This document shows, piece by piece, positions 8,309 to 46,322 of a stretch of DNA of 64,000 bases (positions are counted from its first letter, which is position 1; every line of letters begins with the position of its first letter). The notes under the pieces are model-generated. The model searched no databases and was not told the origin of the DNA. It was given only the letters and a program-made list of their open reading frames with translations. A program made the translations under genes and the position numbers. The stretch is from Prevotella sp. (GTDB taxonomy: Bacteria; Bacteroidota; Bacteroidia; Bacteroidales; Bacteroidaceae): positions 3,768 through 67,767 of the forward strand of contig JAILBT010000037.1 in NCBI GenBank assembly GCA_024680755.1, given 5' to 3'.

Positions 8309-9754
8309 GTGAAACTGTCGCTGACCATAGCCCCACGCAGACGCACGCTGATATGCCTGCTACTAAGCACCTTGTGTGTGCAGACCCTGGCTCAGGGGCT
8401 GGATGGCGCGGTCTATCATCAGCTGAAGGATTTCCCGTTCGTCATCGTGTCCGACGACTATGTGGCCACGCCGCCCACGGTGTCCGATTCGCTCTTCGAC
8501 GCTGCCGCCGTAGGCCTGCGCTTCAAGGTCAACCGCACCGAGCTGCAGCCCACCGACCCCTTCATACCGCTCTTCCGCGAGCGGCTGCTGCCCTGGCTAA
8601 AGACGCAGGACATGGAGCTGCGCCAGGTGTATGTCAAGGGTGCCGCCTCGCCCGAGGGACCATACCAGAACAACGTGCGGCTCAGTCGCGGACGCACGGC
8701 CCGCCTCATAGAGTTCATCAGCCGCGAGATGGGCGACAAGCCCGACCTGGCGAACATGGTGAGCGCCTCGAGCGTGACCGAGGACTATGGCCTGCTGGTC
8801 AAGATGATGGGCCAGGCCGGCGATGCCGACTATGACCGCGTGCGCAGGCTGTGGCTCGACTGCCAGGGCGACGAGGCCTGCTGCAAGCGACGGCTGATGG
8901 CGCTCGACGGCGGACGACTGTGGCGACGGCTGCTCAGACAGTATTTCCCGCAGCTCAGACAGGCACGCGTGGTGCTCTGGTTCGCACGCCGGCAGCCGCC
9001 CGTGGCCGTGGTCGTGGCCGAACAGAAACAGGCCACAGGAGCCTTCGCACGCGTGGAGCGCAGACCGGAGGGCGTGTCGCTGACAGTGCACGAAGAACTG
9101 AACCCGACAATCAACATCAGCGTTGCACCGCCGCTGCCGGTATATAGACGCCGACACCTCATCGCTCTGCGCACCAACCTGCTGCACGACCTCTTCTACA
9201 TGCCAAACTTCGGCTTCGCACCGGGCATCAACGCACAGATAGAATACTACCCCCTGCGTGGACACTATACGCTGAACGCGGCCTTCACCTACACCAACCA
9301 CAGGCGGTGGAGCAGCCACAAGTTCTTCCAGTGGCGAGACGCACAGCTGGAGCTCAGACGATATTTCCGCGGCGGGGGCGTCTTCACCGGACCATACCTC
9401 GGACTATATGCGCAGGGCACCGTCTATGGCATCGGCTTCAGCGCCACAAAGGGCTGGCAGGGCGAAGGCGGAGGCGGCGGACTGAGCCTGGGCTATGTCT
9501 GGCCGCTGAACAGGAAAGGTAACCTCCGGCTCGAGCTGAGCGCCAGCGCCGGAGCCTTCGTCACACGCTACGACCCGTACATATATAACCACCCATACGT
9601 CGGACGCGACGACGGACTCTACTACTACGACTACTACGGCAACGCGGCCAACTTCCAGGAACGAAACTACCGCTTCACCTGGTTCGGGCCAACCAACGCC
9701 GGACTGCACCTGACATACGACATAATATACAGGAAGAAGCAGAGGGTGAAATAG
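8309..9754 (+). CDS. DUF3575-like outer-membrane protein with an N-terminal OmpA-like segment (pilus locus head gene)
   Basis: Signal peptide; VKGAASPEGPYQNNVRLSRGR; C-terminal barrel ALRTNLL...LELRRYF...WFGPTNAGLHLTY. Confidence 0.75.
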   Translation: MKLSLTIAPRRRTLICLLLSTLCVQTLAQGLDGAVYHQLKDFPFVIVSDDYVATPPTVSDSLFDAAAVGLRFKVNRTELQPTDPFIPLFRERLLPWLKTQDMELRQVYVKGAASPEGPYQNNVRLSRGRTARLIEFISREMGDKPDLANMVSASSVTEDYGLLVKMMGQAGDADYDRVRRLWLDCQGDEACCKRRLMALDGGRLWRRLLRQYFPQLRQARVVLWFARRQPPVAVVVAEQKQATGAFARVERRPEGVSLTVHEELNPTINISVAPPLPVYRRRHLIALRTNLLHDLFYMPNFGFAPGINAQIEYYPLRGHYTLNAAFTYTNHRRWSSHKFFQWRDAQLELRRYFRGGGVFTGPYLGLYAQGTVYGIGFSATKGWQGEGGGGGLSLGYVWPLNRKGNLRLELSASAGAFVTRYDPYIYNHPYVGRDDGLYYYDYYGNAANFQERNYRFTWFGPTNAGLHLTYDIIYRKKQRVK

Positions 9755-9816
9755 CAAGACCGACACATGACGGCCAACGAAGGACGGACCGCAGAACCAG
9801 TTATACGAATGACGCT

Positions 9817-9903
9817 TTTTTTAAGACAACGAATTAAAACGAATTATATGGACGACACGCATGAAAACCAGAAGGTAAACTTCGTATAGTGTCAGTTCCT
9901 AAG
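9817..9903 (+). repeat. ACGAATT-family intergenic repeat, copy A
   Basis: TTTTTTAAGACAACGAATTAAAACG is identical at 43635; a second 50-nt block is also alignable. Confidence 0.8.
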
Positions 9904-9937
9904 CTCAAAAGAAACCAAACGCGAAGAGAGAAACGCC

Positions 9938-11164
9938 ATGCTGACAAGAACCATCATAGCAGGAATCAGGCAGTGCTGCCACACCATCGGGTGCGGCAGA
10001 AGGTTCGCCATGCTCCGTGCCTCTCTCCTGGCCATCCTCGTCGCGTCGTGCATCGAGCCGCCACTGCACCTGCCCGGACAGGAGGTGCTGACAGAGATGC
10101 CGGTCGTAGAGACACAGCTGAGCGTCGTCTGGAACGTCAACGCCGACTGGGCAGCCGACTGGTACTACGGCTGGGACGAACGCGACGACGAGATATGGGG
10201 CTCCATAGGCTACACCATGCCGTCGAGCTATCAGGTCAGACGCTACTTCACTGGCGAAGACCCTAAGGCACGCCACACCGACATCGACGCCTTCTCCATA
10301 CGCGGAACAAGCTTCCGACGCTACTTCTCCTTCGGCTTCTACGACATACTCTTCTGGAGCAACATCGACTCGAAAGACGGAACGCAAGTGCTCGTCATCT
10401 ACGAGAGTCCCGACTCGGTTGGAGCAACAACCACGGGCACACGCGGACTGTCGCGCAGCGTCAGCCGCATAGTGGCCGGAGCCGCAGAGGTGGTCGATAC
10501 CACAAGCATCATCGGACTGCGTAACCAGCCCGAGATATTCTATGCCGCATACCCGGAAGACATTTATATATCGCGCGACCTGAGCGACTATATCTACGAC
10601 CCCGTGGAGAATATCTACATCAAGAAGATCGAGACCGAACTCCGACCCATGGTCTATATCTACCTGGTGCAGATCGTCCTGCTCAACAACGACGGACGCA
10701 TCAAGGGCATCAACGGCAACGCCGCCATGTCGTCGATGTCGAGCGGTGTGAACGTCATGACGGGACACACATTCAACAGCCCCTCCATCATCTACTTCAA
10801 CATGCGACTGAAACGCAACCTCAGCTCCGACCGCGGACCATGCGACATCATCGGCGGAAAGTTCACCACCTTCGGACTATGCGACATGGAGCCATACACC
10901 CGGCAGGGAACACAGTACCGTGGCTCGCGAGCCGACCTGAACAACTATGTCTTCTTCGACCTGCTCTTCAGCAACGACGGCGTGAAGACCTACTCCGTCG
11001 ATGTGACAGAACAGTGTCAGCGACAGGCACACGGAGGTGTCATCACCGTATATATCGACTGCTCGCAGCTCGAACCGCCCGAAGGACCGGAGCAGGGCAC
11101 AGGCAGCCTCTTCCAGCCAACAGTCGAAGACTATGAGGAGGTTTACTGGGAAATAGAGATGTAA
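9938..11164 (+). CDS. DUF5119-like (FimB/Mfa2-related) lipoprotein
   Basis: Lipobox LVASC-IEPPL (true start may be M of MLRASLL); NQPEIFYAA, LRPMVYIYLVQ, FTTFGLC, DVTEQ...GGVITV, terminal FQPTVEDYEE. Confidence 0.7.
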   Translation: MLTRTIIAGIRQCCHTIGCGRRFAMLRASLLAILVASCIEPPLHLPGQEVLTEMPVVETQLSVVWNVNADWAADWYYGWDERDDEIWGSIGYTMPSSYQVRRYFTGEDPKARHTDIDAFSIRGTSFRRYFSFGFYDILFWSNIDSKDGTQVLVIYESPDSVGATTTGTRGLSRSVSRIVAGAAEVVDTTSIIGLRNQPEIFYAAYPEDIYISRDLSDYIYDPVENIYIKKIETELRPMVYIYLVQIVLLNNDGRIKGINGNAAMSSMSSGVNVMTGHTFNSPSIIYFNMRLKRNLSSDRGPCDIIGGKFTTFGLCDMEPYTRQGTQYRGSRADLNNYVFFDLLFSNDGVKTYSVDVTEQCQRQAHGGVITVYIDCSQLEPPEGPEQGTGSLFQPTVEDYEEVYWEIEM

Positions 11165-11205
11165 GGAGCAAACGCAACAAATAGCAAATCATAAGATCGT
11201 AAATC

Positions 11206-12342
11206 ATGCTGACCATTGCCAATCCCATATACGACACCGTGTTCAAGTACCTCATGGAGGACGAACGCATAGCACGAACCATACTGTCGGCACTGCTGAA
11301 GGAGGACATCGTCAGGGTGGAGATGCGCCCGCACGAATACAGCAACGGGCAGAAGGAGATGATGAGCATCTTCCGCATCGACTTCGGAGCCACCATACGC
11401 AAGGACGACGGGCAGGAGCAACTCGTGCTGATAGAACTGCAGAAATCGTGGCTGCCAACGGAGATACTGCGCTTCAGGCAATACCTCGGTGTGCACTACC
11501 AGAACCCCAAGAACATCGTCGGCGACAGCCCCGACCGCCACGCGCTGCCCATGGTGGCAGTCTATCTGCTGGGGCACGACGTGGGGCAGATAGAGGAGCC
11601 GGTCATCTATGTGCGCAACCAGACGCTCAACTATGACAACATGCCCATCACACGGGGGCTGCCCAACCCCTTCATCGAGAGCCTCAGCCACAACAGCATC
11701 ATTGTGCAGATACCGCGGCTGCACGGAAAGATCAACAACAGGCTGGACAAGGTGCTCAGCATCTTCGACCAGACGCAGGTGAGCCAGGAAAGCCAGCACT
11801 ACCTGAGGCTGGACGACGCTGCCTATGACGCTGCCGACAGCGACATGCAGCCCATACTGCACCGGCTGATGAAGGCAGCACTAAGCGTGGAGATGAGGCA
11901 GGACATGAACGTCGAAGACGAGTATTTCTCTCTCATCAAAGAACAGGAAGGAAAACTCTATGGCCTCGAGCGTGACCTGGAAGACACCATAAGGCAACTG
12001 GCCGAGAAAAAGTCGTTGCTGGCCGAGAAGGACGGACAGCTGGCTGAGAAGGACGGACAGCTGGCCGAGAAGGACGGACAACTGGCCGAGAAGGACGGAC
12101 AGCTGGCCGAGAAGGACGGACAGCTGGCCGAGAAAGACGGACAACTGGCCGAAAAGGACGGACAACTGGCCGAGAAGGACGGACAACTGGCCGAGAAAGA
12201 CGGACAGCTGGCCGAGAAGGACGGACAGCTGCGCCAACTGGTGGGCATGCTGCTGAAGATGGGACAGACCCCGGAAAGCATTGCCGAGCAACTGCACATC
12301 GACGCGGAAAGCATCAAAGCACTTGGCAAGAGCGAGCCATGA
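11206..12342 (+). CDS. Rpn/PD-(D/E)XK nuclease-like protein with a coiled-coil repeat tail
   Basis: IANPIYDTVFKYLMED start, RIDF...LIELQK nuclease motif, C-terminal MGQTPESIAEQLHI helix-turn-helix-like end. Confidence 0.65.
   Translation: MLTIANPIYDTVFKYLMEDERIARTILSALLKEDIVRVEMRPHEYSNGQKEMMSIFRIDFGATIRKDDGQEQLVLIELQKSWLPTEILRFRQYLGVHYQNPKNIVGDSPDRHALPMVAVYLLGHDVGQIEEPVIYVRNQTLNYDNMPITRGLPNPFIESLSHNSIIVQIPRLHGKINNRLDKVLSIFDQTQVSQESQHYLRLDDAAYDAADSDMQPILHRLMKAALSVEMRQDMNVEDEYFSLIKEQEGKLYGLERDLEDTIRQLAEKKSLLAEKDGQLAEKDGQLAEKDGQLAEKDGQLAEKDGQLAEKDGQLAEKDGQLAEKDGQLAEKDGQLAEKDGQLRQLVGMLLKMGQTPESIAEQLHIDAESIKALGKSEP
12019..12228 (+). repeat. 21-nt coding tandem repeat x10 (LAEKDGQ)
   Basis: Ten units counted, differing only at synonymous positions. 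Confidence 0.97.
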
Positions 12343-12404: not shown

Positions 12405-14300
12405 ATGAACAAAAGTTTAATTTTCGCCCTCGCTGCAGCCGCCACACTGGCCGCGTGCAGCACCGACGAACTGGTCAACGAGCAGATCGACGCCAGGCAC
12501 ACAGGGCAGGTGCCCATCGAATTCAGCGTCGAAAAGCAGAACATCACACGAGCTGCAAACCTCGAGACCGTCAAGCACTACAACTTCGGCGTCTGGGCAT
12601 GGAAACGCGACGGCAAGAACGGCCTTGACGATGCCGAGGTGATGAACAACTACCTCGTGGGCTGGTCGGACAATGCGGGCAAGGGCTACAAGGTCGGCTC
12701 TCTGACCACCACGTACAACACAAAGCCTGGAACCCTGCAGGATCATGTCTCACCTTGGTACTATGAGGGGCTGGGAACGGCCGAGTATCTCAACACCGAA
12801 ACGAGCGCATGGGGCTACTACACCAAGGACAGCACCGCCTACACGTCGAACAACGCCAACCAGTACCTCCGCTATTGGGACCTGGCTTACAATCAGACCA
12901 ACTTCTACTGCTACGCCCCGTATGTGCATAACGGAAGCACCGCCGCTACCAAGGTGACGTTCGATCATGTCAAAAACGGCAACAGCACAATGACCTTTGG
13001 CGCTCAGGTGATACGCGACGGTTACGACGTGCCGGAGAACAAGACATACTACAAAGACTACAGCCGCACCCTCGGTGAGTTTATGTATGCCGGCGTGAAG
13101 GGTGTCAATGCCAACCTGAACGACATCACCGTGCCATTCAAGCACATGGGCGCACAGCTCTTCATCCGCTTCTATGAGGACATTCCCGGCTACAAGGTGG
13201 AAATCATCGACCTCTGCGCCGACAATGGCACCACCGGTGCCACCGGTGACCAGACGCGTGGCATCCAGGCCACACCGTCTATTGAGACCACACCACCGGT
13301 GTATTACACTCTCTCAACAGCCGAGGCTTATAACCAGCTCCTGCCTGGCGCATGGACTCTCCAGATGGTGAAAACACCTGCCGTGTATTATACCGCAGAG
13401 GAGGCAGCAGCATACAATAGTGAAAATAACTATAATGAAGGTGATGCCGGCTATGTTACAACAAGCACTGTGAAGACAGCTGCTGTGTACTACACAAATC
13501 AAGAGTGCTATGACCATAACAAGACCCTGCCAGGTGCCAAGATTATCGGCCAGATAAAGGACCCGGGTGTTTACAATAACGGAACGTATTACACCACGCA
13601 GGGAGCTACCGTCACATTCGCTGAGGCTACCGCAGTGCCCACCTATCAGGCCGTATGGACCAACAGCACCACGAAGACAAACGACAGTCCGCTGATGTTC
13701 CAGATACCGAGGACAGGAACTGCCTATGAAACTTATTCTGTTGCTCCAGGCAATTTGACAGCCTGGAACGGACACAATGTCATCAAGGAGGCTGTGATCA
13801 CCGGTGCCCAGCAGTATAGCTATTCACCCACCATCTACTACCCCGTGTCACAGCCCACCAAGGATAACAACAATACCGAGTGGACCAACACTACCGGCAC
13901 TGGCTTCACATTCCACGTCTCCTATCGCATCATTGCTGAGGACAACAAGGAGCAAATAACCGTGCACAACGCCACCGTGCATGTGCCCTGCAAGGGTGCG
14001 GTCAAGACGGGAGCGGAAGGTGCAAGCGAGGGCGAGTCCACCACTGATGCCAACACTTGGATCACCGTCTGGCAGCCCAACGTGAAATATACCTACACGT
14101 TCAAGATCACACGCAACTCTAACGGTAGCACCAACCCCGGTAAGAATATCGACCCGACCGACCCCAGCGTCAGCGACGAGGTGGCATTGTATCCCATCGT
14201 GTTCGACAAGGCCGACATCGAGGACTACACCACCAACTACTCTGTTTACGAGTTGACCGAAGACACTGACACCCAGTATCACGAATACCCCCAACAGTAA
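12405..14300 (+). CDS. Type V pilin/fimbrillin-like lipoprotein 1 (candidate major shaft subunit)
   Basis: Lipobox LAAC, ITRA processing site, LRYWD, FYCYAPY, VPFKH, WQPNVKYTYTFKI; first pilin, followed by a strong hairpin. Confidence 0.8.
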   Translation: MNKSLIFALAAAATLAACSTDELVNEQIDARHTGQVPIEFSVEKQNITRAANLETVKHYNFGVWAWKRDGKNGLDDAEVMNNYLVGWSDNAGKGYKVGSLTTTYNTKPGTLQDHVSPWYYEGLGTAEYLNTETSAWGYYTKDSTAYTSNNANQYLRYWDLAYNQTNFYCYAPYVHNGSTAATKVTFDHVKNGNSTMTFGAQVIRDGYDVPENKTYYKDYSRTLGEFMYAGVKGVNANLNDITVPFKHMGAQLFIRFYEDIPGYKVEIIDLCADNGTTGATGDQTRGIQATPSIETTPPVYYTLSTAEAYNQLLPGAWTLQMVKTPAVYYTAEEAAAYNSENNYNEGDAGYVTTSTVKTAAVYYTNQECYDHNKTLPGAKIIGQIKDPGVYNNGTYYTTQGATVTFAEATAVPTYQAVWTNSTTKTNDSPLMFQIPRTGTAYETYSVAPGNLTAWNGHNVIKEAVITGAQQYSYSPTIYYPVSQPTKDNNNTEWTNTTGTGFTFHVSYRIIAEDNKEQITVHNATVHVPCKGAVKTGAEGASEGESTTDANTWITVWQPNVKYTYTFKITRNSNGSTNPGKNIDPTDPSVSDEVALYPIVFDKADIEDYTTNYSVYELTEDTDTQYHEYPQQ

Positions 14301-14453: not shown

Positions 14454-15746
14454 TTGACAAACAACAACAACATACTGCTCACCTTGGCCGCGCTGCTTGC
14501 AGCCTGCTCCTCAGACACCGCGCTCGAGGACGCACAGCACGTCGACCTCAGACAGCCCATGCGCTTCGGACTGTCAACAGCCGACACACCGGCAGAACAG
14601 GCCGTGACCCGAGCCGCACTGGAGAACACCTACCAGGACTTCAAGGTGAGCGCATGGAAATACTTCGGCGACGACGGTCAGCAACAGAACGTCATGGACG
14701 GGTACAAGGTGGAATACTCCGCCACACCCTTCAACGACTACGGCGACGGATACAACTGGCACTACGAGAACATCAACGAACAACTGCTGCGCTACTGGGA
14801 TCTCGCGGCCTTCCCCTACGAGTTCCGCGCCGTGTCGCCATACAACACCACGGCCGCCATCACAACCGACGGACTCAACGTCGCAGCCGACTTCAAGAGC
14901 CATGTGCTCTACAACGACGCCTACTACCACACATACACCTCTGAAGAGGTGAACACACCCTGCACCAAGGCCGACGGCGAACCCTGCGTCGTGGCTAACG
15001 TGAGCCGCGCCAAACGCATTAACGACGACGGCAACCAATATGTCGATACCGACAAGATCAAGGACACCCCGATCAACGAGGCGGGAAAAGCCAACGCCAC
15101 ACGCGAGGTACACCTGCCCTTCCACCACCTGATGTCGAAGGTGGGCTTCAAGATATTCATCGACAACCCGCAGCCATTCGACATGCAATTCGACGACGGA
15201 AAAGGCGATGAGTACGGCGTGTGGATAGACAACATACGCATCACAGCCAAGGCCGACGACCCGGGCTTCGTCACTGCCGCCAACGGATATACCGCCACCG
15301 GCCAGCAGGGACTGCTCGAAGGCCAATTCACCGGAACCACCACACAGAGCGGAGAGTACACTCTGCTCTTCCACAACGCATACAACTCCATAGCAGACCA
15401 GAACCTGCACTACCACTTGAGCCGAGAGACGGCCTACAGCCTGACCAAGAAGAACGGCGCCCTCGACGACCTGCACCAGTTGCCACAGCAGAACGTGAGG
15501 CTGCACGTCGTCATGGACATCCACACCAACCATGTGGAGCCGGACGACCAGCAGTTCCACTACGACTCGTGGCTCAGCCTCGACAAGAACAACACCGAGG
15601 GCGACCGCTTCACCTGGCTGCCCGACCATAAATACATATATGTGTTACGCATTCCCAACCTCCACGGCCACGAGATAAACCTCCACACCTGCGAGGTGCT
15701 GCCATGGGACGACGTGCAGACCACCGACATCGACGTGGTACTGTGA
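14454..15746 (+). CDS. Fimbrillin-like lipoprotein 2 (TTG start)
   Basis: LAAC lipobox, VTRA, LLRYWD, LPFHHLMSKVGF, WLPDHKYIYVL, terminal VLPWDDV. Confidence 0.8.
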   Translation: MTNNNNILLTLAALLAACSSDTALEDAQHVDLRQPMRFGLSTADTPAEQAVTRAALENTYQDFKVSAWKYFGDDGQQQNVMDGYKVEYSATPFNDYGDGYNWHYENINEQLLRYWDLAAFPYEFRAVSPYNTTAAITTDGLNVAADFKSHVLYNDAYYHTYTSEEVNTPCTKADGEPCVVANVSRAKRINDDGNQYVDTDKIKDTPINEAGKANATREVHLPFHHLMSKVGFKIFIDNPQPFDMQFDDGKGDEYGVWIDNIRITAKADDPGFVTAANGYTATGQQGLLEGQFTGTTTQSGEYTLLFHNAYNSIADQNLHYHLSRETAYSLTKKNGALDDLHQLPQQNVRLHVVMDIHTNHVEPDDQQFHYDSWLSLDKNNTEGDRFTWLPDHKYIYVLRIPNLHGHEINLHTCEVLPWDDVQTTDIDVVL

Positions 15747-15844
15747 AGAGTGATGAGTTTGCTGCCGCCCGGCATAGAAATTGAGAAACAAAAAATATCG
15801 TAGATCGAGAATAAACAGTAAAACCGTAAATAGTAAATAACACA

Positions 15845-17455: not shown

Positions 17456-17479
17456 AATAAACAAAAAAATAACAAAGAT

Positions 17480-19999: not shown

Positions 20000-20005
20000 A
20001 GGCAC

Positions 20006-20126
20006 CTGCTCGACGGGATTTGCAATCCCGTCGCAGTGAGTATCGGGATTTTCAATCCTCTCACGCTAAGAGCGCATTATAAATGCTGATATTCACTGCG
20101 GTCGGATTGCAAATCCGACCGAGCGG
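20006..20126. repeat. GATTTGCAATC-type REP doublet
   Basis: GCTCGACGGGATTTGCAATCCCGTCGC ... GCGGTCGGATTGCAAATCCGACCGAGC as an inverted pair. Confidence 0.8.
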
Positions 20127-20306
20127 CGAACTAAAGAAAGCTGATGTCTGAAGGCTGAAGGCTGAATGAACGTTAAAAAAGCAAAAAGAAAGGAACCGAA
20201 AAGCGATATTTATACAGAATTTATTAAATTTGTAGCGAGACCTTCCGCAAAGGCGGATACTCGCAAATAAATAGTAAATCGTAAATCCGTAAATAGTAAA
20301 TAACAT

Positions 20307-21911: not shown

Positions 21912-21992
21912 AAAATAAATAGGACTCGCTTCAGCGCTTTTATAAAGCGTAGCGACTAAAAGAAATCGTAAATCCGTAAATAGTAAATAGCC

Positions 21993-23588: not shown

Positions 23589-23631
23589 ACACTGAACATT
23601 GAACATTGAACAGATTGAAAATAAAAGCAAG

Positions 23632-26025: not shown

Positions 26026-26079
26026 ATAGTGAAATAACACAATAGTAAATAAATCGTAAATCGTCAAATCGTAAATACA

Positions 26080-37006: not shown

Positions 37007-39694
37007 ATGAAAAAGTATATACCGTCTATTTACATGATACCCTTAGCGTGGCTGTGCCTGACCGCCTGTCAGGACACGGAGGACACGCTGAACGGTGCTG
37101 CCGGTGCAGCCGTCGGCACGGACATCCGTGTGGGTGGTGTCAGCACCGACCAGCTCGTGGCCCATGCTGCCGTGACCAGAGCCGACGGCGACGAGGCGGA
37201 GGAGGTGCAGCGCGACGACGCAGAGAACATACCGTGGCTCAGAGGCCCGCTGAAGAACGGACTGGCCATCACCTACGGCAAGACGATCGACGGCGTGAAG
37301 CGGTCGAAGGTGGCCATTCTTACTTTGCTGACCAATGTTGACGGCAGCATCAAGTATGCCGAAGATGACGAATTCGACGGCGGACAAGCGGCCGAGTACA
37401 GCTTCTTCTATAAATATAAGGACCGAGGAAACAGTGATGAGGCCGAGGCCACGCCCAGTGTCACTGCCCAGTGGTTTGACAACGGTGCCCACTTCTTCGA
37501 GGGTCTGCATGTGCCCGACCGCATCGTGACAGGAGCCACCGGCTTCCCCACCGACCTGACCACCGACCAGCATGGCGATGGCGACGGCGAGTCGGACGGC
37601 GGCACCTTCAGCGAGGCCGACATGGGCAACTACACACTGTTGTCGCACTATCTGAGTATGCCCTCCAACTATACCATCAATGCCACGGTGAAGCGCATCA
37701 AGCTGCCATTCCGCCACCGTCTGGCACGTGTGCTGGCCTATATACTGATAGACCCCACGATGGTCCACAGCGACAAGACGCGAGTGAAGATTGCGGGCTA
37801 CATGAAGGACAAGGATGGAAACGCCACGGCTAAGGAAGACCCCTCGACCTCTGAAATCAAGTTCTGCAACGTCAAGGTGCTCGACTATGTGGCCAACAAC
37901 GGCAACCAGGACCAGCCCTACCAGCCACGGTGGACTAAGGTGCGAAAGGCCATTCCACACTTCGTGGGCGAGCGTGGCAGCTATGATGACTCGAAGAATC
38001 AGTACCCTAACGACGCAGTGAAGAACGATTTCATAGCCTATTACAGCGTTGCCGACAAGACATATATCTATCCCACCGATAAAGACTGGGCAACGGCGCA
38101 TGGCAAGATCTACGATCCCACAACCAATCTCTCGTCCGACGGGAAATATGAGCGTACCAGCTACGGCACGGTGCCTGTCTATGACCTGATTGTGCGTCCC
38201 ACCTACACGACGCTCGGCAGGGTGATGTACGACGAGGACACCAGCACTAAAAGCCGCCAGGACTACATGGACGAAGAAAACCAGATAGAGTTTGAAATCA
38301 CGCTCGACAACGGGCTGAAGTATTCAAAGGTGTTCAACTTCGACCTCGATGCCAACTACCAGACGGTGGTCTATCTGCATATCAGCCACGAGCGGGTGGA
38401 TTATGACAACTCTGGCAGCGAGCTGTGGGTTGAGACCACCGGCTACGACGACTGGTATGGTGTGAACAACCAGAACGGCAACAATCTCTCCTTTGCCGGC
38501 AGCGGCTGGCAGCGCGCCTATACCTGCGGCAAGACGTTCACTGACAGGGTGACCGACGGCCATTACTACTATCAGGACGGCGAAGACCTTTACGCCCAGT
38601 ACGTCGATGATGCCACCTGGATAGAAATGTTCAGAGAGGCATACAAGGGCGGCAATCATCATGGCGACTACTTCATCCTGGAGCACGACATCAGCATACC
38701 GGCCGCCGCACTGCCTGATGGCTTTGTCTTCACCGGCCATCTTGACGGACTGGACCATACCATCACGCTCACCGACGGCACCTACACCCCGGCCTACGAC
38801 AGCTACGAAACGCCATACGGCAACGCCGCAGACACGAAGTATGTACGGTCGGGCGACACATGGACGGAGTTCACTCCCGCTGCCGGCGTGACCTATTACC
38901 AGAAGACCAACGACGGCACGGCCGATGTCTATACCGCCATCGCCGACATGAAGAGCTATGCCGGCGCAGTGGCCTACACCAAGGAGACCGTCACTACTTA
39001 CACCTACACATTAGCCACCGTCGCAGCCGTAAAGGCCGCCGCCGCTGCTGATGGGGCCACCTACTACCGGAAGGACGGTGAGAGCTATACTGCGATTAGC
39101 AACATAGAATATTATATCAGCGACGTCATTGCCACCATCTACACAAAAAATGGCGAAGACGAGTATTCGTCAGTCACAAGTGTAGCAGACCTTGATGACA
39201 GCGAGACGTATTACACCCATGAGAATGAGACCTATTCTCCTATCGCCAATCTTGCAGCCTATATCGGCATCTACACCCGCTCTTCCGATGAGACTGACGT
39301 TTACACCCCGATAGTATTCTACAAGAAAGTACACCACAAAGGAGTGTCGGGAGCTGGCTCCGCTTCGTCGGGCGCACATCTGTTCTCCGGTCTGAACGGA
39401 CACTACACCACTGCCCAGGAGGGGGACGCCTACACAGGGACGTGGGAGGCCAACGTGCACAAGGAGAGTGGCAAGTGGGTGCCTTACAAGTCGGCCACTG
39501 ACGGCTGGCGCGCAGAAATCATCAACACCAATATTGAGGGCGGCACCGTGTTCCCCGCCACCGCTGTCTATGGCACTGACATTACCGGCTATGTACACAA
39601 CTGCTGGGAAGGAGCTACCTACGACGGCGTCACCAACAGGTGGAGCGGCGGCAACAAGGTCACAGAGTACACACCGTCACTGCCGGAATACTGA
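37007..39694 (+). CDS. Large pilin-like lipoprotein 9 with C-terminal extension and Tyr/Thr-rich repeats
   Basis: LTAC, VTRA, LPFRHRLARV, YFILEHDI...FTGHLDGLDHTI. Confidence 0.7.
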   Translation: MKKYIPSIYMIPLAWLCLTACQDTEDTLNGAAGAAVGTDIRVGGVSTDQLVAHAAVTRADGDEAEEVQRDDAENIPWLRGPLKNGLAITYGKTIDGVKRSKVAILTLLTNVDGSIKYAEDDEFDGGQAAEYSFFYKYKDRGNSDEAEATPSVTAQWFDNGAHFFEGLHVPDRIVTGATGFPTDLTTDQHGDGDGESDGGTFSEADMGNYTLLSHYLSMPSNYTINATVKRIKLPFRHRLARVLAYILIDPTMVHSDKTRVKIAGYMKDKDGNATAKEDPSTSEIKFCNVKVLDYVANNGNQDQPYQPRWTKVRKAIPHFVGERGSYDDSKNQYPNDAVKNDFIAYYSVADKTYIYPTDKDWATAHGKIYDPTTNLSSDGKYERTSYGTVPVYDLIVRPTYTTLGRVMYDEDTSTKSRQDYMDEENQIEFEITLDNGLKYSKVFNFDLDANYQTVVYLHISHERVDYDNSGSELWVETTGYDDWYGVNNQNGNNLSFAGSGWQRAYTCGKTFTDRVTDGHYYYQDGEDLYAQYVDDATWIEMFREAYKGGNHHGDYFILEHDISIPAAALPDGFVFTGHLDGLDHTITLTDGTYTPAYDSYETPYGNAADTKYVRSGDTWTEFTPAAGVTYYQKTNDGTADVYTAIADMKSYAGAVAYTKETVTTYTYTLATVAAVKAAAAADGATYYRKDGESYTAISNIEYYISDVIATIYTKNGEDEYSSVTSVADLDDSETYYTHENETYSPIANLAAYIGIYTRSSDETDVYTPIVFYKKVHHKGVSGAGSASSGAHLFSGLNGHYTTAQEGDAYTGTWEANVHKESGKWVPYKSATDGWRAEIINTNIEGGTVFPATAVYGTDITGYVHNCWEGATYDGVTNRWSGGNKVTEYTPSLPEY

Positions 39695-42460
39695 TTGAAA
39701 CGAAGAATGAAGATTTTGCTACCGCATATATATTATATGAATATAAATCGTTTATTATACATCGGCATAGCGCTGCTCTTAGCAGGTTGCATTGACGACA
39801 CGGACACCATGCAACCTCAGGCGTTGCGCTACGACCTCTTAGGACGCGGCGTGTGCTTCAACGCCTCGCATGCTGAGCCGTTCACTACCCGGGTGACAAC
39901 CTCTCGTCACGACGGTAGCTTCAACGAGGGCGACCTGCTGACCATCTACCGGCAGTATTCATATAACAACGGCCTTTCCTTTGATGAAGTAGAAAGCCAC
40001 ACGGCCTATCGTGTCTATTGGCTGCAGACGAAGTATGCCCCCGGGACGACCACCGTCTCCTTGGGCGACGAGTGGATACCGAAACCCGGCGAGACGGGCT
40101 ATGACCCCGACAAAGACCCGAAGACATTCACTCAGACGAAGGCCGACTCGCTGACCTGGGACAACGGCAACACGGTGCGCTTCCGGGCGTGGTCGCGCAG
40201 CAATCTTGCCGCCGCCATCCCCAACAGCAAGGGGAAAGACAACAAGCACCGCTACTATCCTGACTACAGCGTGTCAGACTGGGTCACCGTGTCAGGACCC
40301 ACCGACGATGTGTCGCTGTCGATGAAGCACCTGGGCTGCCGCATAGGCATCGTCCCAAAGGCGGGCAATGAGCTATGGAGAGCGGAGATCTGTACCGAGG
40401 TGGAAGACTATATGTGGCCCGACAACTCCACCGACTATGCCCACGACGAGTCGCCAGACGAACATGGGAAGACGCTGGCCGAGGCTACAGAAGAACTCAA
40501 TGCCGTGCTGGCCGTATATAACCAGATGTGCATGCCTGCCGGTGTGGACATCCAGACCTCGCTGCTCACCACCATGACCAAGGCCAAATATGAGGCCGTG
40601 GAAACAGACCTCTCGACGATTCATACAGAAACGGATGGTATTGTTAACTTTGGGACGAAGACTGCTGAAGAGATTAGCACCGACGTGCAGCGCCCGCTGT
40701 TCTGCTCAAACGACGGCCGGCTGTACATGGTCACCATCCCTTACATCATGAGCAACGAAGCTGACCATAAGGGCGAGGCACTGACGTTGCCCGCCTGCAC
40801 GCGCTTCAGGGTGTGGCTCTACGACGTGAACGACGGCGACAAGGGCACCAACCACGAAGAGTCAAACTACCATATCCTGACGCTGGGCGATGTGAGGCGC
40901 GTGAACAGCAACGAACCCATGTTTCCCAACGGACTGGAGCTAAGGGCAGGCTACAGCTACCTCTTCAGCGTGGGCTATCACTACGACAAGTTCACCATCA
41001 CCCCGGCCGACGATTTCCGGTGGGTGGACACACCGGCCGTTTCGACCGACGGCTCAGACCAGAGCGTCAGCGAAGGGCCGTCGCCTAATTACGAATGGTG
41101 GACATCGGCCATCGCCCAGGCTGTCAACTTGGCCAAGACCGACAACACCGTAGGCTACAACCCTGTGTTTGAGATTGACACGCGAGAGGAATTCCTGGAG
41201 TTCATCAAACTGGTCAACGGCACTGCGGCCACCAAGACCAGCGGGCTGACGCGGGTGACAAAGACGGTGAAAGACCCTGACACGGACAAGGATATAGAGG
41301 TAGTAGAGTGGTATAAAGACACCGACATGGAGGACGGAAAGCCCAAGAAGGGAGCTACCCCTATAGACAAGAACAGTGAGGAGGCCGAGGGCTACATCTT
41401 CTACGAGCACTACTACCCCGCCAATGCCGACCAGAAAGCCTATTCCGTAGAGGACTATGTCCGCGGCCCCTACAGCTTCTATGACGAGAACCTCAACACC
41501 CACTTCACCGTCAAGCTAACGGCCGACATCGACCTGGCCGACTGGGAACTGGACCCTATAGGCGATGAGGACAGCAAGGTGGCTTTCCGTGGCGTGTTCG
41601 ACGGTTGCCACGAGGTCATCGATGGCTCCGGCAAGCGAACAGCCGATGTTGTCTATACGCTTAGGAACGTCAATGTGAAGGGTGGCTATCTGTTTGAGTA
41701 CTGCATGGATGTGGCCATCCGCAACCTGAAGATCGAGACCACCCACGACTTCAAGCTGCTCAAGACGGCCGAGGCCCATAACGAGTTGGGCTACGGTGCC
41801 TACATCGTGGGCATCAGCATCAAGGCACCGTCTGCCGGCAACCCCATCGCCACAACGCTCAAGGGCAGCAGCTATGTCGTGGCCTGCATATACCAGGGCA
41901 GGGCCACCGGCGCCATGATTGGCTCGGCCGACAACCTGAACATGTATGGCTGCATGATGGCGGCCGAGGGACTGGCACCGGGCACCGGCGCACTCCTGGG
42001 CGAATACATAGGCAGCGACCAGTTCTTCGCCCCGCAGACATCGAAGACCATCACCTGGGGACGCTTCATGGTGAACTATTACGACACTGGACTCTCGCCA
42101 GGCACCAATGCCGTGGGCAACATCGCTGATGCCTACAAACCCCAGCAGTATATCCGTGGCTCCTACTCCTACATTCTGAAAGCCAAGAACGACAACCTGA
42201 TAGACGACGAGGTGGACTGGAACAAACAGCTGACAGACGAAATGAAGAGGGGCTACTACGGTCTGGCTCCGTGGAAGGCACTGAACTATGCCATCTGGAG
42301 CTACAACAAAGTGGGCGATGCCGTGGCCATTCCGCAGAACAGTATGCTCCACTTCGAGAACAACAGCGACGGCTATGTGCACCGCTATCCCGAGCTGGTG
42401 GCCGGCGCACCCACGGAAGAGTATGTGGCAGACTGGAACGTGCTGGAACAGAATAACTGA
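39695..42460 (+). CDS. Large pilin-like lipoprotein 10 (start may be ATG 39707 or 39737)
   Basis: LAGC, TTRV, LSMKHLGCRI, VKLTADIDL...PIG...FRGVFDG. Confidence 0.7.
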   Translation: MKRRMKILLPHIYYMNINRLLYIGIALLLAGCIDDTDTMQPQALRYDLLGRGVCFNASHAEPFTTRVTTSRHDGSFNEGDLLTIYRQYSYNNGLSFDEVESHTAYRVYWLQTKYAPGTTTVSLGDEWIPKPGETGYDPDKDPKTFTQTKADSLTWDNGNTVRFRAWSRSNLAAAIPNSKGKDNKHRYYPDYSVSDWVTVSGPTDDVSLSMKHLGCRIGIVPKAGNELWRAEICTEVEDYMWPDNSTDYAHDESPDEHGKTLAEATEELNAVLAVYNQMCMPAGVDIQTSLLTTMTKAKYEAVETDLSTIHTETDGIVNFGTKTAEEISTDVQRPLFCSNDGRLYMVTIPYIMSNEADHKGEALTLPACTRFRVWLYDVNDGDKGTNHEESNYHILTLGDVRRVNSNEPMFPNGLELRAGYSYLFSVGYHYDKFTITPADDFRWVDTPAVSTDGSDQSVSEGPSPNYEWWTSAIAQAVNLAKTDNTVGYNPVFEIDTREEFLEFIKLVNGTAATKTSGLTRVTKTVKDPDTDKDIEVVEWYKDTDMEDGKPKKGATPIDKNSEEAEGYIFYEHYYPANADQKAYSVEDYVRGPYSFYDENLNTHFTVKLTADIDLADWELDPIGDEDSKVAFRGVFDGCHEVIDGSGKRTADVVYTLRNVNVKGGYLFEYCMDVAIRNLKIETTHDFKLLKTAEAHNELGYGAYIVGISIKAPSAGNPIATTLKGSSYVVACIYQGRATGAMIGSADNLNMYGCMMAAEGLAPGTGALLGEYIGSDQFFAPQTSKTITWGRFMVNYYDTGLSPGTNAVGNIADAYKPQQYIRGSYSYILKAKNDNLIDDEVDWNKQLTDEMKRGYYGLAPWKALNYAIWSYNKVGDAVAIPQNSMLHFENNSDGYVHRYPELVAGAPTEEYVADWNVLEQNN

Positions 42461-42462
42461 TA

Positions 42463-43605
42463 ATGCAAAACAGAAAAATGAAGGCAATGAAAAGAGCATT
42501 ATACATAGGTCTGACGGCGTTGCTCACGGCCTGTTCGGCCGACGACACCGACTTGCAGCAGACGGAGCAGCCACGAGGCCTCCGTCTCACCACGTCGGTG
42601 AACGACTTCGACGGTGAGGACGGCAGCCCAGTTACCCGCACCGACGTTGCGGGCACGGCCTTTACCGATGGCGACTGGATGAAGCTGAAAATCATCTGTC
42701 CATACAGCTCGCATACCGAGTTCTGCGAAACTACCTACGGTAACACCTACGACGCGATGTGGCTGTTCAAGTGGCAGGGCACGGACTGGACTGCGCTCAC
42801 CGCCGCCGACAAGGTTGACGTGGGCGGCAACTATAGGTTTACTGACTCTTACAACCTGCTCGGCCGGTACGAGGCGCAGCAGACACCCTACGTCTATACC
42901 GCCTCGACGTGGAACGAGAACGTGATATTTCTGGCCAACGGCACCAGATACTCGCAGTACAGCTATATCTTCGAGGCCGACCAGACCACACTGAAAAACT
43001 ATGTTAAGTCCGACCTGCTCTGGGCGCAGACCTACATGCAGACCGGCTCGTACAACGTTCATCTGGCCTTCAACCACGTCATGGCCTGCCTGAAAATCAG
43101 TGTCGCGGGAGCCGCACTGTCTGACAAGGCCGTCGTCACTGTCGAAGGCATGCCCGACATCGACCAGCGCGAGGTGGTGGTGGGCAACTATTATGCCGCG
43201 CGCAGCAAGGTAAACTCCGGCTACGGCTACCAGCAGAAGCACTGCTGCACGAAGGCCAACAACGGCAAGGTGCTCGGAGCAGTGTATATCAACGAAGCGG
43301 CTAACAGAGCAGAGGTACACCCCATGTCGGGCAACCCCGTCAATGAGCCGACGACGGTCGATTTCAACAACTCTTTCAAGACGCATCCCGGCAACCAGTT
43401 CGCCGAGATTCCCAACACAGGCACCTATACGGCCTATCGAGACGGCGCTACCAACGACTTCTATCTCATCGTGCCCCCCTGCACTCTGCCCGCCGGCAAG
43501 GGCGTCGTCTGGATTCGCGACGGAGCCAGCCGCCACAGCTACGAGCTGACCACGAAGACACTGGAACAGGGAAAGCGCTACACCATCAACATCAACCTAC
43601 CTTAG
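42463..43605 (+). CDS. Short fimbrillin-like lipoprotein 11 lacking the C-terminal W-strand (candidate anchor)
   Basis: LTAC, VTRT, SDLLWA, LAFNHVMACL; ends GKRYTININLP. Confidence 0.75.
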   Translation: MQNRKMKAMKRALYIGLTALLTACSADDTDLQQTEQPRGLRLTTSVNDFDGEDGSPVTRTDVAGTAFTDGDWMKLKIICPYSSHTEFCETTYGNTYDAMWLFKWQGTDWTALTAADKVDVGGNYRFTDSYNLLGRYEAQQTPYVYTASTWNENVIFLANGTRYSQYSYIFEADQTTLKNYVKSDLLWAQTYMQTGSYNVHLAFNHVMACLKISVAGAALSDKAVVTVEGMPDIDQREVVVGNYYAARSKVNSGYGYQQKHCCTKANNGKVLGAVYINEAANRAEVHPMSGNPVNEPTTVDFNNSFKTHPGNQFAEIPNTGTYTAYRDGATNDFYLIVPPCTLPAGKGVVWIRDGASRHSYELTTKTLEQGKRYTININLP

Positions 43606-43634
43606 GAACAAGTACTATATACAGTTTACAATCA

Positions 43635-43778
43635 TTTTTTAAGACAACGAATTAAAACGTATTACACGAATTACACAAATTAAGGTGGATAACACGAATA
43701 AAAATGAAATATACAAGTTAAAACGAATGACACGAATGAAGACAAAAGTACAAACTTTATTTAGTGTCAGTTTCTTAG
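43635..43778 (+). repeat. ACGAATT-family intergenic repeat, copy B
   Basis: Direct repeat of 9817-9903 with extra ACACGAAT-like units between the two shared blocks. Confidence 0.8.
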
Positions 43779-43790
43779 TAAGACCTTGAC

Positions 43791-46322
43791 ATGACAACAA
43801 ACAGAATATGTTGCTTTATGGCCCTGCTGGCTGTTGCCCTGCTGTCGGCTTGCTCTGAGACCGGGGAGGAGGCAGCAAGCACCACTGCGGACAGTGGCAA
43901 CGCCCGCAAACTGCAAGGCATAAAGACACTTATCGATGGGGGGACGATGACACGGGCCGCCTACACCCCTCTGGCCGACTATGTGGGCCGGCGCGACTTC
44001 AATAAGGACGACATCATCATGTTTACCAAGATCTGCCGTACAACGCCCGCCCCCATCGCCGCCTTCACCTATCCGCAGCTCAGTGGCACCACGCCGCTCT
44101 ATGAAGGCGTAGAGTTCCTGGCCGAGACAAAAGGCGGAGGATGGGCACGCACCAAACGCTTCAAGGCTCAGGGCGAGCCGGAGGATATTTACTGGTCAGA
44201 CGCCGAGAGCCCCCACACCTTCGAGGCTTACGGCATACCCAGCGACGTGACCGTGACCGGCACTGGCGACGACGCCATCACCACCAACCATTTCGACTGG
44301 AAAAGGGGAACCGCAATCATCGACGACAAGACCGCCACGTTCTACATGGGTTCGATAGGCAACCCGCGAGTGACCGACGGCGACATCATCGACTATACCC
44401 TGACCGCCGAGGAACAGGAAGCCAACAGCCAGGAGATAAAGGACAATAAGAACAACGTGATAGGCTACGACTACTACAATCCGAAACTGGAGAAAGAAGA
44501 CCTGCTGATAGCATACGACACACAGATGCAGGCAGAGCCGGGCGGCAGCGTGGCACTGGTGAAGTTCCATCACGCCCTGAGCAGCGTGCGCGTGGTGGTG
44601 AAGCTCAGCGGCTTCAGCTCTACCGATGCCGACAACAAGACGACGGTCAGCGACATGTATCTGCTGCATCAGCCCACCATGTATGTGTGGATGATGGACC
44701 AGTGGCAGACACAGCCGTTGCGCGCACATAACGACGGGTCGTCGGTGACCAACGACCAGCCACTGGTCAACAGTGCATGGGCTGGCGAGGCCACGATACC
44801 CTCCTTCGACCAGCGCAAGGACATGAAGCTCTGGATACCCAAGCCTGAAGGCTCCAACCCGGGCAAGAGCGACAACGAGTTCACCTTCTATGGCATCACC
44901 ACGCCGCAACCATCTACCTATATCAGCACGGTTTCCAACGAAACCTATAAGAAGACGCAACTCCGCTTCACCGTCACCTATCCCAACCCGCTGAAGCCCT
45001 CCGATATGGTACCCCATACCTACACTGCTGAACTGGACGATGTCTATTTCGAGCCGGGCTTCAACACCACCATCAACATCCAGCTGAACCACGAGGACGA
45101 GGAAATAACGGTCGGCGCAGAGTATGAGAGCTGGGAGTATATTGCCACGCCCGACCAGGGCGTGCTGAAGAAGAACTCCACCTTCCTGCAGGACACCAGC
45201 CACGACGGCACCGATTCAAGCTTAGAACACCCATACGTGACCATCGTCGGCGACGCGAAGGCTACCGCCGACGATGCCACCTGGCTGTATGAGTCGGCCG
45301 CAGACCACAAAATCTACGACATCTACGGCCACGACGGCTCTTCCGAGGCTCAGGCCTACCAGATTAGCACCGCCTTCCAGCTGGTGTCGTTTGCCTACGA
45401 GGTGAAAGGGGGCAGGGACTTCACCGGCAAGTATGTGCGTCTCGACGCCGACCTCACGCTGCAAAAAGAACCCGACAAGACGAAGTCGGAGATAGTGACT
45501 ACTTACGACGATCAGGGCAACATTAGCAACCAGAAAGAGATAGACGAAGCCCCCGACGCCATCAGCTGGATAGGCATAGGCGATGCCTCCAACCCCTTCA
45601 ACGGCACCTTCCTCGGCGGCCACCGCTTCATCCACCGCCTGAGCGGGCAGCCGCTGTTTGCCGCCCTCGGCCCCAATGCCAAGGTGAAGCAACTTCAGCT
45701 GAGTGCCATCAGCATTGGCAACGGCACAGGCAGTGCCGTCACTGGCGGCGGCATCTTCGCCGAGGTGAGCGCAGGCCGTATCAGCGGCTGCCGCGTGGTG
45801 GGCGACGTGACGTTGAGCGGCAGCACCGGTGGCTATGCCGGAGCCTTCGTGGGGCAGAACTTCATTGGCACGGATCTGGGGGCTCTCTACGCCAGCTATC
45901 ATGTCGGCAATACGAAAAGCACCGGCTCCACCACCCATGTGGGAGGACTGGTGGGCAACAACGGCAACGGCATAATCTCCGGTTGCTTCCAGGCGGGTGT
46001 GGTATCAGGCGGTTCAAGCTACAACATGGGCATAGCCGGCGACAACAGTGGCGACAATATCTATAACACCTACTTCAACAGCTCGCTCTTTACCTACAGT
46101 AGTTCCTCGGCACACGTTCAGCCCAAGACTACCGCCGAGATGACCAAACAGCAGTTTGTTGACGAACTGAACCAAGGCATCACAATATGGCGCACTGCCA
46201 CGACGGATGTGGCTGTGGATAACGAAGGCACTGAAAACGACGTTTATGGCCTTGGCCACACCGACTACGACGACTATAGGTACATATACCAGCCCGCGGG
46301 CTATCCATACCTGTCACAGTAG
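43791..46322 (+). CDS. Large pilin-like lipoprotein 12 with GLUG-like C-terminal region (candidate tip adhesin)
   Basis: LSAC, MTRA, YWSD, FHHALSSV, YQISTAFQL...RLDADL, FNGTFLGG, VGGLVG. Confidence 0.72.
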   Translation: MTTNRICCFMALLAVALLSACSETGEEAASTTADSGNARKLQGIKTLIDGGTMTRAAYTPLADYVGRRDFNKDDIIMFTKICRTTPAPIAAFTYPQLSGTTPLYEGVEFLAETKGGGWARTKRFKAQGEPEDIYWSDAESPHTFEAYGIPSDVTVTGTGDDAITTNHFDWKRGTAIIDDKTATFYMGSIGNPRVTDGDIIDYTLTAEEQEANSQEIKDNKNNVIGYDYYNPKLEKEDLLIAYDTQMQAEPGGSVALVKFHHALSSVRVVVKLSGFSSTDADNKTTVSDMYLLHQPTMYVWMMDQWQTQPLRAHNDGSSVTNDQPLVNSAWAGEATIPSFDQRKDMKLWIPKPEGSNPGKSDNEFTFYGITTPQPSTYISTVSNETYKKTQLRFTVTYPNPLKPSDMVPHTYTAELDDVYFEPGFNTTINIQLNHEDEEITVGAEYESWEYIATPDQGVLKKNSTFLQDTSHDGTDSSLEHPYVTIVGDAKATADDATWLYESAADHKIYDIYGHDGSSEAQAYQISTAFQLVSFAYEVKGGRDFTGKYVRLDADLTLQKEPDKTKSEIVTTYDDQGNISNQKEIDEAPDAISWIGIGDASNPFNGTFLGGHRFIHRLSGQPLFAALGPNAKVKQLQLSAISIGNGTGSAVTGGGIFAEVSAGRISGCRVVGDVTLSGSTGGYAGAFVGQNFIGTDLGALYASYHVGNTKSTGSTTHVGGLVGNNGNGIISGCFQAGVVSGGSSYNMGIAGDNSGDNIYNTYFNSSLFTYSSSSAHVQPKTTAEMTKQQFVDELNQGITIWRTATTDVAVDNEGTENDVYGLGHTDYDDYRYIYQPAGYPYLSQ

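What the first reader, a model, noticed from the sequence alone, without database searches (positions are those of the whole stretch)
8309..46322. 38-kb type V pilus-like locus with 12 pilins interleaved with five nuclease-domain passenger genes
Seen: 19 co-directional genes behind one clear promoter box. All 12 pilin-like genes have a lipobox and a Thr-Arg site; one Rpn-like and four AAA + PD-(D/E)XK genes sit between them, confined to the first half. Known: type V pilins are lipoprotein precursors cleaved after Arg/Lys and polymerised by donor-strand exchange; the characterised Porphyromonas fim and mfa loci have about five genes; this AAA family has no established function that I know of. 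Inference: a surface-variation locus in which ATPase-nuclease genes act as recombination scaffolds or catalysts, or as co-expressed defence genes for a phage-receptor locus.
Basis: partly seen in the sequence, partly recalled or inferred. Interest (0 to 1): 0.85.

Follow-up and report, generated by a model that had tools for sequence, protein, structure and literature searches.

The report
Nuclease cassettes lodged in pilus operon
A gut Prevotella's long, conserved gene cluster for a predicted surface fibre (type V pilus) carries five extra nuclease-type genes that most related clusters lack; they likely ride on the pilus promoter as defence-type cargo and swap DNA among themselves, and are probably not what drives variation of the pilus subunits.

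Summary
Observation confirmed, with two corrections: one of the four ATPase-nuclease (DUF1703) genes has an internal stop, and a second promoter-like box precedes another. The barrel-anchor-12-pilin backbone is not a local expansion: its order is unchanged in 31 of 31 complete related loci, none holding a DUF1703 gene, and first-half pilin alleles are shuffled there anyway. A scaffold or catalyst role in pilin variation is therefore not supported. The link is still more than chance. Three close lineages carry the same DUF1703 sub-lineages at shifting junctions, often as end-preserving deletion stubs. In a second Prevotella pilus family, 8 of 45 genomes have one inside the locus (10 matches, 1-2 expected). 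Embedded copies are co-directional, mostly lack their own promoter box (3 of 21 have one, against 47 of 67 elsewhere) and match between genomes only within gene ends. Best reading: single-gene, STAND-like nuclease cassettes, likely defensive, resident in a recombination-prone operon; function untested. The scan found the operon and DUF1703 mosaicism before on other DNA; I found no note or paper on their association.

The parts
8284..8291 (+). Bacteroidota -7 promoter-like box (TAnnTTTG, consensus recalled) before the first gene
8309..9754 (+). DUF3575 outer-membrane barrel protein, first backbone gene
   Evidence: Pfam E 1e-16; GTG at 8309; directly before the anchor in related loci
9938..11164 (+). 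anchor-like lipoprotein (weak DUF5119), no early Thr-Arg
11206..12342 (+). Rpn-like PD-(D/E)XK passenger with 21-nt tandem repeats in its C-terminal part; no match in the related loci
12405..14300 (+). pilin p1 (likely stalk; duplicated in some relatives)
14454..15746 (+). pilin p2
15845..17455 (+). AAA1, DUF1703 type A, intact
16484..16516 (+). 33-nt in-frame mini-element in AAA1, identical to the copy in AAA2
17480..19999 (+). pilin p3, a recently exchanged allele (83-85% nt to AAA-free loci)
20008..20124 (.). REP-like inverted repeat, dispersed (another copy near 6829)
20225..20232 (+). second promoter-like box, before AAA2
20307..21911 (+). AAA2, DUF1703 type A, intact; mini-element at 20943-20975
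21993..23588 (+). AAA3, DUF1703 type B, with an internal TAG at 22227-22229
23599..26025 (+). pilin p4 (paralog of p3, copy number varies among relatives)
26080..27702 (+). AAA4, DUF1703 type B, intact; both ends 93-100% identical to AAA3, middle 50-80%
27799..30000 (+). pilin p5
30031..32247 (+). pilin p6
32290..33852 (+). pilin p7, first gene of the co-inherited block p7-p12
33881..36988 (+). pilin p8 with a C-terminal extension (weak GLUG)
37007..39694 (+). p9, lipobox + Thr-Arg lipoprotein; pilin fold not shown
39695..42460 (+). p10, predicted type V pilin domains plus a beta-rich C-terminal domain
42463..43605 (+). pilin p11
43791..46322 (+). p12, last backbone gene
46360..46397 (+). perfect 17-bp hairpin behind p12, possible terminator
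   Evidence: read from the sequence printed

Best explanation
The locus is a conserved 14-gene operon for a predicted type V pilus whose recombination-prone first half carries single-gene DUF1703 ATPase-nuclease cassettes and an Rpn-like gene, likely defence-type cargo that is likely transcribed with the pilus and is not needed to build or vary it. Shown: fixed backbone order without the cassettes; the same two DUF1703 sub-lineages at different junctions in related lineages; segment exchange between copies; deletions that leave both gene ends; co-directional copies that mostly lack a promoter box. Inferred: a copy of each sub-lineage entered once, was kept only where co-directional and non-polar, lost its own promoter, spread to other junctions and other pilus loci by recombination between conserved gene ends, and is purged when not useful, the stubs probably serving as landing sites for re-entry. 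Predicted, untested: the protein is a STAND-like switch that cuts DNA when it senses an invader.
For: Backbone order monotonic in 31 of 31 complete loci; 0 of 108 PF09820 matches of those genomes lie inside (about 1 expected). Cassettes or stubs in G429, G432 and L151 at junctions p1|p2 to p4|p5, absent from six close contigs L145-L150. The five full type-A copies from three lineages and four junctions form one clade, SH-aLRT 99, apart from the own-genome outside paralogs of G000 and G432 and 60 database hits (quick tree); 11 of 17 rows of the type-B clade are pilus-embedded (FastTree). Stubs fuse a 5' end to a 3' end. AAA3/AAA4 third-position identity is 0.91 and 0.86 at the ends, 0.50 in the middle; a lineage-specific 33-nt insert is identical in AAA1 and AAA2 and absent from 119 of 119 other top homologs. 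The same mosaicism occurs in DUF1703 arrays outside pilus loci and was published for Cardinium (PMC6387759). Between genomes, 75-84% nt matches end at or within about 130 nt of the AAA gene ends and do not carry the pilins. Own promoter box: 3 of 21 embedded, 47 of 67 other copies. The same junctions hold HigB/HigA-like, PIN, four-helix-bundle, KilA-N, ORF6N and PDDEXK_3 genes in other genomes. Model closest to archaeal ATPases and STAND/NLR proteins (Z 16.3, rmsd 4.2, 286 aligned; Avs5 Z 12.1, rmsd 4.4, 252 aligned).
Against: No PADLOC or NCBIfam model names these proteins as defence genes. The first step, entry at a junction without a homologous stub, has no identified mechanism. The enrichment in the second pilus family (10 matches against 1.2-2.4) and long residence of one sub-lineage could equally reflect selection for linkage to the pilus. 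Promoter loss fits both. Kin are not independent, so the p-values overstate. No RNA evidence of co-transcription was obtained.
Confidence: 0.58

Rival explanations
1. Pilus-coupled guard: the promoterless DUF1703 sub-lineages are selected to be expressed exactly when the pilus is, because the pilus or cell contact exposes the cell to phages or mobile DNA.
For: 8 of 45 anchor-bearing genomes of a second pilus family have a copy or stubs inside the locus, among them G211 (its only match) and G344 (3 of 4 matches on the pilus contig); promoter loss; intact Walker A/B and nuclease motifs and purifying selection; Rpn proteins are anti-phage toxin-antitoxin systems in E. coli (PMC10400941, abstract).
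Against: 31 of 31 complete loci of this operon's own family lack them, though 18 of those genomes have PF09820 matches (up to 21; three have a single match, one of them weak); 264 of 274 matches in the 45 genomes lie elsewhere; copies are often deleted or broken; 6 of 17 type-B clade rows lie outside pilus loci with their own promoter box.
Confidence: 0.2
2. Selfish self-mobilising gene: the nuclease cuts empty junctions or stubs and repair copies the gene in, as homing or minimal transposition; it offers the host nothing.
For: Copy number from 0 to 46 per genome, tandem arrays, movement as a single gene, frequent inactivation by deletion; TnsC and Cdc6/Orc1 appear among the fold matches at Z about 10-11.
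Against: No shared terminal repeat or target duplication was visible at filled versus empty junctions (by eye); copies diversify in blocks instead of staying alike; STAND/archaeal ATPases score higher than TnsC.
Confidence: 0.13
3. One reading: AAA copies bracket pilins (AAA1-p3-AAA2, AAA3-p4-AAA4) and provide the homology or the cuts that swap them.
For: p3 and p4 are each flanked by a same-type pair; p3 is a recently exchanged allele, and a strain about 99.5% identical fits the window from 19999 onward but not in the 87 letters before (record 9); that strain also has a 10-SNP tract in 72 nt of AAA2.
Against: First-half shuffling is strong in AAA-free loci (rank correlation with p10 0.34-0.51 for p1-p6 against 0.71-0.81 for p7-p12); the p3 allele is shared with AAA-free loci and similarity starts at 17457-17660 and ends at 19999-20000, p3's own ends; cross-genome AAA matches do not extend into pilins.
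Confidence: 0.07
4. Assembly artefact from collapsed or misplaced repeats.
For: A metagenome-assembled genome with repeated genes; the TAG in AAA3 was not covered by a listed read piece.
Against: Copies are only 73-78% identical; contigs of another strain bridge AAA3-p4 and AAA2-spacer; G429, G432 and L151 have homologs at the same junctions.
Confidence: 0.02

Closest known systems
Porphyromonas gingivalis Mfa and Fim type V pili (PMC13655056, passages read)
   Same: Lipobox lipoproteins with an Arg about 30 residues behind the Cys (Mfa1 Cys20/Arg49), anchor subunit without that site, two-domain beta-sandwich fold.
   Different: 12 subunits instead of about 5, several of 700-1035 aa with extra domains; DUF3575 barrel in front; cytoplasmic nuclease genes inside; never characterised by experiment as far as my searches show.
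DUF1703 family, PF09820 + PF08011 (Knizewski 2007, PMC1913061; Siozios 2019, PMC6387759; passages read)
   Same: Domain order, RxRRFGKS Walker A, nuclease motif, multi-copy expansion, recombination between paralogs, unknown function.
   Different: Sub-lineages resident in type V pilus operons, mostly without own promoter box, at shifting junctions, with end-preserving deletion stubs; the passages read report none of this.
Rpn toxin-antitoxin anti-phage genes (PMC10400941, abstract and introduction read)
   Same: N-terminal PD-(D/E)XK domain and a C-terminal helix with variable short repeats.
   Different: Seven-residue repeats here against four; no Pfam PDDEXK_2 match for this copy; internal antitoxin start not testable.
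STAND/Avs sensor-nucleases
   Same: Predicted NTPase-helical-winged-helix core with a nuclease domain.
   Different: 534 aa, no repeat-type sensor domain, nuclease C-terminal; no PADLOC match; activity untested.
DGR-diversified type V pilins of Bacteroides (bioRxiv 10.1101/2024.11.15.621889, passages read)
   Same: Non-structural genes inside pilus operons; pilus variation and horizontal transfer.
   Different: No reverse transcriptase among the ORFs scanned in the window; variation here is allele exchange.

Membership tests
Type V pilus locus | Subunits are lipoprotein precursors with a lipobox | tested here: met
   12 of 12 plus the anchor
Type V pilus locus | Arg/Lys cleavage site about 30 residues behind the Cys; anchor lacks it | tested here: met
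   Thr-Arg at +30 to +36 in 12 of 12; none in the anchor-like protein. Motif only; cleavage not shown.
Type V pilus locus | Two-domain beta-sandwich pilin fold | tested here: met
   Mfa_like_1 for 9 of 12, p12 by 16 of 30 members, p10 model matches solved type V pilins, best E 6.5e-10
Type V pilus locus | Pilin fold of p9 | tested here: inconclusive
   0 of 32 members match Pfam; only a short C-terminal match to p12; not folded
Type V pilus locus | Donor-strand exchange and filament formation | not testable with these tools
   needs experiment
DUF1703 | PF09820 N-terminal and PF08011 C-terminal, with Walker A/B and PD-ExK motifs | tested here: met
   4 of 4 genes; AAA3 interrupted by a stop
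Described anti-phage system (PADLOC 2.0) | Match to a system model | tested here: not met
   0 of 5 proteins; only weak Cas4_II hits, E 0.001-0.007
STAND/Avs | STAND-like NTPase core | tested here: inconclusive
   archaeal ATPases Z 16.3 and 15.0, NLR/Avs Z 11-13.7, Cdc6/Orc1 Z about 11; fold does not separate these or show function
STAND/Avs | Phage-triggered activation of the effector | not testable with these tools
   needs phage challenge
Rpn toxin-antitoxin | Rpn-family PD-(D/E)XK domain | tested here: inconclusive
   no Pfam match; Atlas neighbours named Rpn/PD-(D/E)XK transposase, score 0.97-0.98
Rpn toxin-antitoxin | Internally translated antitoxin | not testable with these tools
   needs ribosome profiling
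Insertion sequence or integron cassette | Shared terminal repeats, target duplication or att sites; dedicated recombinase | tested here: not met
   none seen by eye at filled and empty junctions; only short heptamer repeats upstream; no integrase among ORFs scanned

The most novel reading that the evidence does not exclude
Prevotella type V pilus operons host a dedicated, promoterless lineage of STAND-like ATPase-nucleases that is switched on with the pilus and guards the cell against phages or mobile DNA entering through it; gene-end stubs act as reloadable slots, so each junction can be emptied and refilled with a new specificity allele.
Probability: 0.18. Interest if true: 0.8.

Novelty: new variant of a known kind. 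Interest (0 to 1): 0.45.

Why it matters
DUF1703 is a large family of unknown function with up to 46 matches per Prevotella genome here. Copies that sit without a promoter inside one operon, with natural full, stub and empty alleles at the same junctions, give a direct way to test what the family does and how it spreads. Cultured Xylanibacter strains (records behind L021, L022) carry the AAA-free form of the operon and could serve as hosts. If the guard reading held, it would be a case of defence wired to the expression of a surface organelle in dominant rumen bacteria.

Tried and rejected
Local gene expansion of pilins: rejected, order conserved. One promoter for all: not shown; the sigma-70 scans use the wrong consensus for this phylum and were not used. 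PDB sequence searches with AAA4 and p6 found nothing. Rfam: 0 matches in 7000-47000. Viral contigs: 6 pattern hits, none a relative of AAA4; plasmids: 68 records, the 15 listed at 33-41% identity, so no carrier was identified. The sheep RNA run X10 held only 41-61-nt pieces and says nothing on transcription. Joints that skip between AAA copies or skip AAA4 have short sides and probably come from other organisms; not used. Low cover of p3 in runs X1-X3 is a hole and is not counted; only the unfitting 87 letters of record 9 are. The 10-SNP tract in AAA2 of the close strain does not come from AAA1 (4 of 10 match); donor unknown. G430, G431, G451 and G467 could not be judged: their loci break early and p4/p10 were not found with these queries except one p3/p4-like match in G467. 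L277, L278 and L280 end just behind the anchor but stay in the count of 45. G464 carries a divergent AAA_35/PDDEXK_3-like gene at p4|p5, counted as another passenger. Twenty further loci of the second pilus family were not read as sequence; they were judged from PF09820 coordinates only. No complex prediction was run. Literature searches that found no paper linking DUF1703 to pilus loci or describing this operon: (listings only); supplements of the papers read were not opened and Table S4 of PMC6387759 may bear on the recombination comparison.
Full report
Observation. The window is from a gut Prevotella-group genome bin (G000, 2.53 Mb, 80% complete; genus inferred from the names of homologs). 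Between 8309 and 46322 lie 19 genes on the + strand: a DUF3575 barrel, a weak DUF5119 lipoprotein, an Rpn-like gene, twelve pilin-like lipoproteins (p1-p12) and four PF09820+PF08011 (DUF1703) genes. All twelve have a lipobox and a Thr-Arg 30-36 residues behind the Cys; the anchor-like protein has none. This matches the Mfa1 layout (Cys20, Arg49; PMC13655056, passages). Nine match Mfa_like_1, p12 does through 16 of 30 members, the p10 model matches solved type V pilins (E 6.5e-10), and p9 is unplaced. Two corrections: AAA3 has a TAG at codon 79, and a second promoter-like box lies before AAA2. Contigs of a strain about 99.5% identical run from AAA3 into p4, so the order is real.

The backbone is conserved and does not need the passengers. 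The anchor alignment gave 79 loci; I extended 32 of them and G229 and added seven metagenome contigs found with p3. Of these, 31 are complete from anchor to p12. All 31 keep the order (p3/p4 and p1 vary in number), and none holds a DUF1703 gene or stub by tblastn or profile search. Those genomes have 108 PF09820 matches in all, about 1 expected inside by length, 0 seen; 13 have none. In 30 of these AAA-free loci the p7-p12 block is inherited together (rank correlation with p10 0.71-0.81) while p1-p6 are shuffled (0.34-0.51); G444 and G446 are 85-88% identical in p1 and p5 but 48-49% in p2 and p3, with one weak and no PF09820 match. Large insertions also fall mostly at junctions up to p6. The first half is thus the variable part with or without AAA genes, which explains where the passengers sit. 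Other cargo uses the same junctions: HigB/HigA-like, four-helix-bundle and a divergent ATPase here; PIN, ORF6N, KilA-N and PDDEXK_3 in the second family.

Where the AAA genes do occur. Three close lineages (G429, G432, L151) have full copies or stubs at p1|p2, p2|p3, p3|p4 or p4|p5; six close contigs (L145-L150) have none at the junctions they cover. Stubs are 5' ends fused to 3' ends, twice with the same 5' breakpoint. The five full type-A copies form one clade (SH-aLRT 99) apart from outside paralogs and 60 of the 119 best database hits used (quick tree; recombination makes it approximate). Searching 400 Prevotella genomes with AAA4 DNA showed that its closest relatives often lie in a second, distant pilus family; in the tree 11 of 17 rows of that clade are embedded among pilins or Thr-Arg lipoproteins, in 9 genomes, and 6 lie elsewhere (for G421 and G087 the label rests on lipoprotein arrays without an anchor match). 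Type A is less exclusive: 10 of 40 rows; I read the context of 12 of its top matches, not all. For an anchor-chosen count I took 45 of the 61 anchor-bearing genomes, leaving out mainly those whose anchor lies near a contig end and those already counted: 8 have PF09820 inside the locus (7 full-length, read as sequence; G201 two 5' stubs, from coordinates only), 10 of 274 matches against 1.2-2.4 expected. Kin are not independent. Most DUF1703 genes lie elsewhere: capsule loci, housekeeping junctions, tandem arrays.

How they behave. AAA3 and AAA4 are 93-100% identical over both ends and 50-80% in the middle, with third-position identity 0.91, 0.50 and 0.86. AAA1 and AAA2 share a 59-nt identical run holding a 33-nt in-frame insert absent from 119 of 119 homologs, so DNA was copied across p3 without removing it. 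The close strain has 10 SNPs in 72 nt of AAA2. The same block mosaicism occurs in arrays outside pilus loci, and recombination among DUF1703 paralogs is published for Cardinium (PMC6387759, passages). Between genomes, AAA matches of 75-84% stop at or near the gene ends and carry no pilin: the gene moves alone. Free-standing copies mostly have their own TAnnTTTG box (47 of 67; many of the rest are downstream members of arrays), embedded ones mostly do not (3 of 21; two copies with under 150 nt of upstream DNA were dropped), and every embedded copy seen is co-directional.

Test of the scaffold idea. p3 is the one traceable recent exchange: 83-85% nt to L145-L150, whose anchors (where present) are 72% and whose p2 and p4 are 42-55% aa. 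Similarity begins at 17457-17660 and ends at 19999-20000, p3's own ends, and the partner loci have no AAA gene. The close strain seems to carry another p3 allele ending at the same point (record 9). Crossovers inside AAA genes between strains of one species remain possible as with any flanking DNA, but they are not required.

What the protein likely is. The AAA2 model (pLDDT 86.7) is closest to archaeal Walker-type ATPases (Z 16.3, rmsd 4.2, 286 aligned), then NLR, BrxC and Avs proteins, then Cdc6/Orc1 and TnsC; Walker and nuclease motifs are intact (family definition in PMC1913061, passages). No PADLOC or NCBIfam model fits. PMC10952713 lists PF09820 as a domain hit in RADAR, PARIS and Old-tin proteins (one table passage), a weak lead. 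Patchy presence, block diversification, frequent loss and toxin-like neighbours are what defence genes usually show (general knowledge), and Rpn proteins are anti-phage in E. coli (PMC10400941, abstract). Defence is inferred, not shown.

Verdict. Both components are known kinds, and the scan had noted each before (read after my own tests). What is new is their recurrent association: promoterless DUF1703 sub-lineages living at the junctions of type V pilus operons, with stub, full and empty alleles. Cargo in a recombination-prone operon is the best reading (0.58); a pilus-coupled guard is the boldest one not excluded (about 0.2). Interest 0.45; new variant of a known kind.

Noticed in passing
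window 16484-16516 and 20943-20975; L290, L291, L293, L294: A 33-nt hairpin mini-element inserts in frame into unrelated proteins, always in the same frame (11 residues) and before an AA-starting codon: 4 of 7 copies in five other Prevotella genomes lie in long ORFs; many more 93-100% matches. It resembles Rickettsia palindromic elements (recalled); one search showed no paper on it in Prevotella.
   Followed up: partly
G450, G461, G462, G465, junction p5|p6: A 1381-1401 aa secreted non-lipoprotein sits between p5 and p6 in 4 of 31 complete loci.
   Followed up: no
L232-L289: A second Prevotella pilus family: DUF3575, anchor, one to four p1-like pilins, a p2-like pilin, one more lipoprotein, then a giant protein of up to about 4200 aa.
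   Followed up: partly
L236 (G237:C5): Five DUF1703-type genes among three p1-like pilins within 16 kb, the densest case seen.
   Followed up: partly
window 11176-11212, 15803-15839, 20266-20302, 21953-21989, 26041-26077: Heptamer-repeat spacers precede all five passengers; 4 of 10 genome copies of the core motif precede the AAA genes, the others ordinary genes. Role unknown.
   Followed up: partly
L153, L154, L157 (G457) and L152 (G429): Tandem DUF1703 arrays with blocks 100% identical alternating with blocks about 50% identical.
   Followed up: partly
window 5558-5809, 7964-8143, 48140-48211: Other intergenic short tandem and palindromic repeats, one shared in inverted form with 60781-60960.
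   Followed up: no
G453 and G458, junction p5|p6 (L113:617-2149, L121:17371-18840): ORFs of about 500 aa with no Pfam match; the N-terminal part resembles REP-associated tyrosine transposases by recall only.
   Followed up: no
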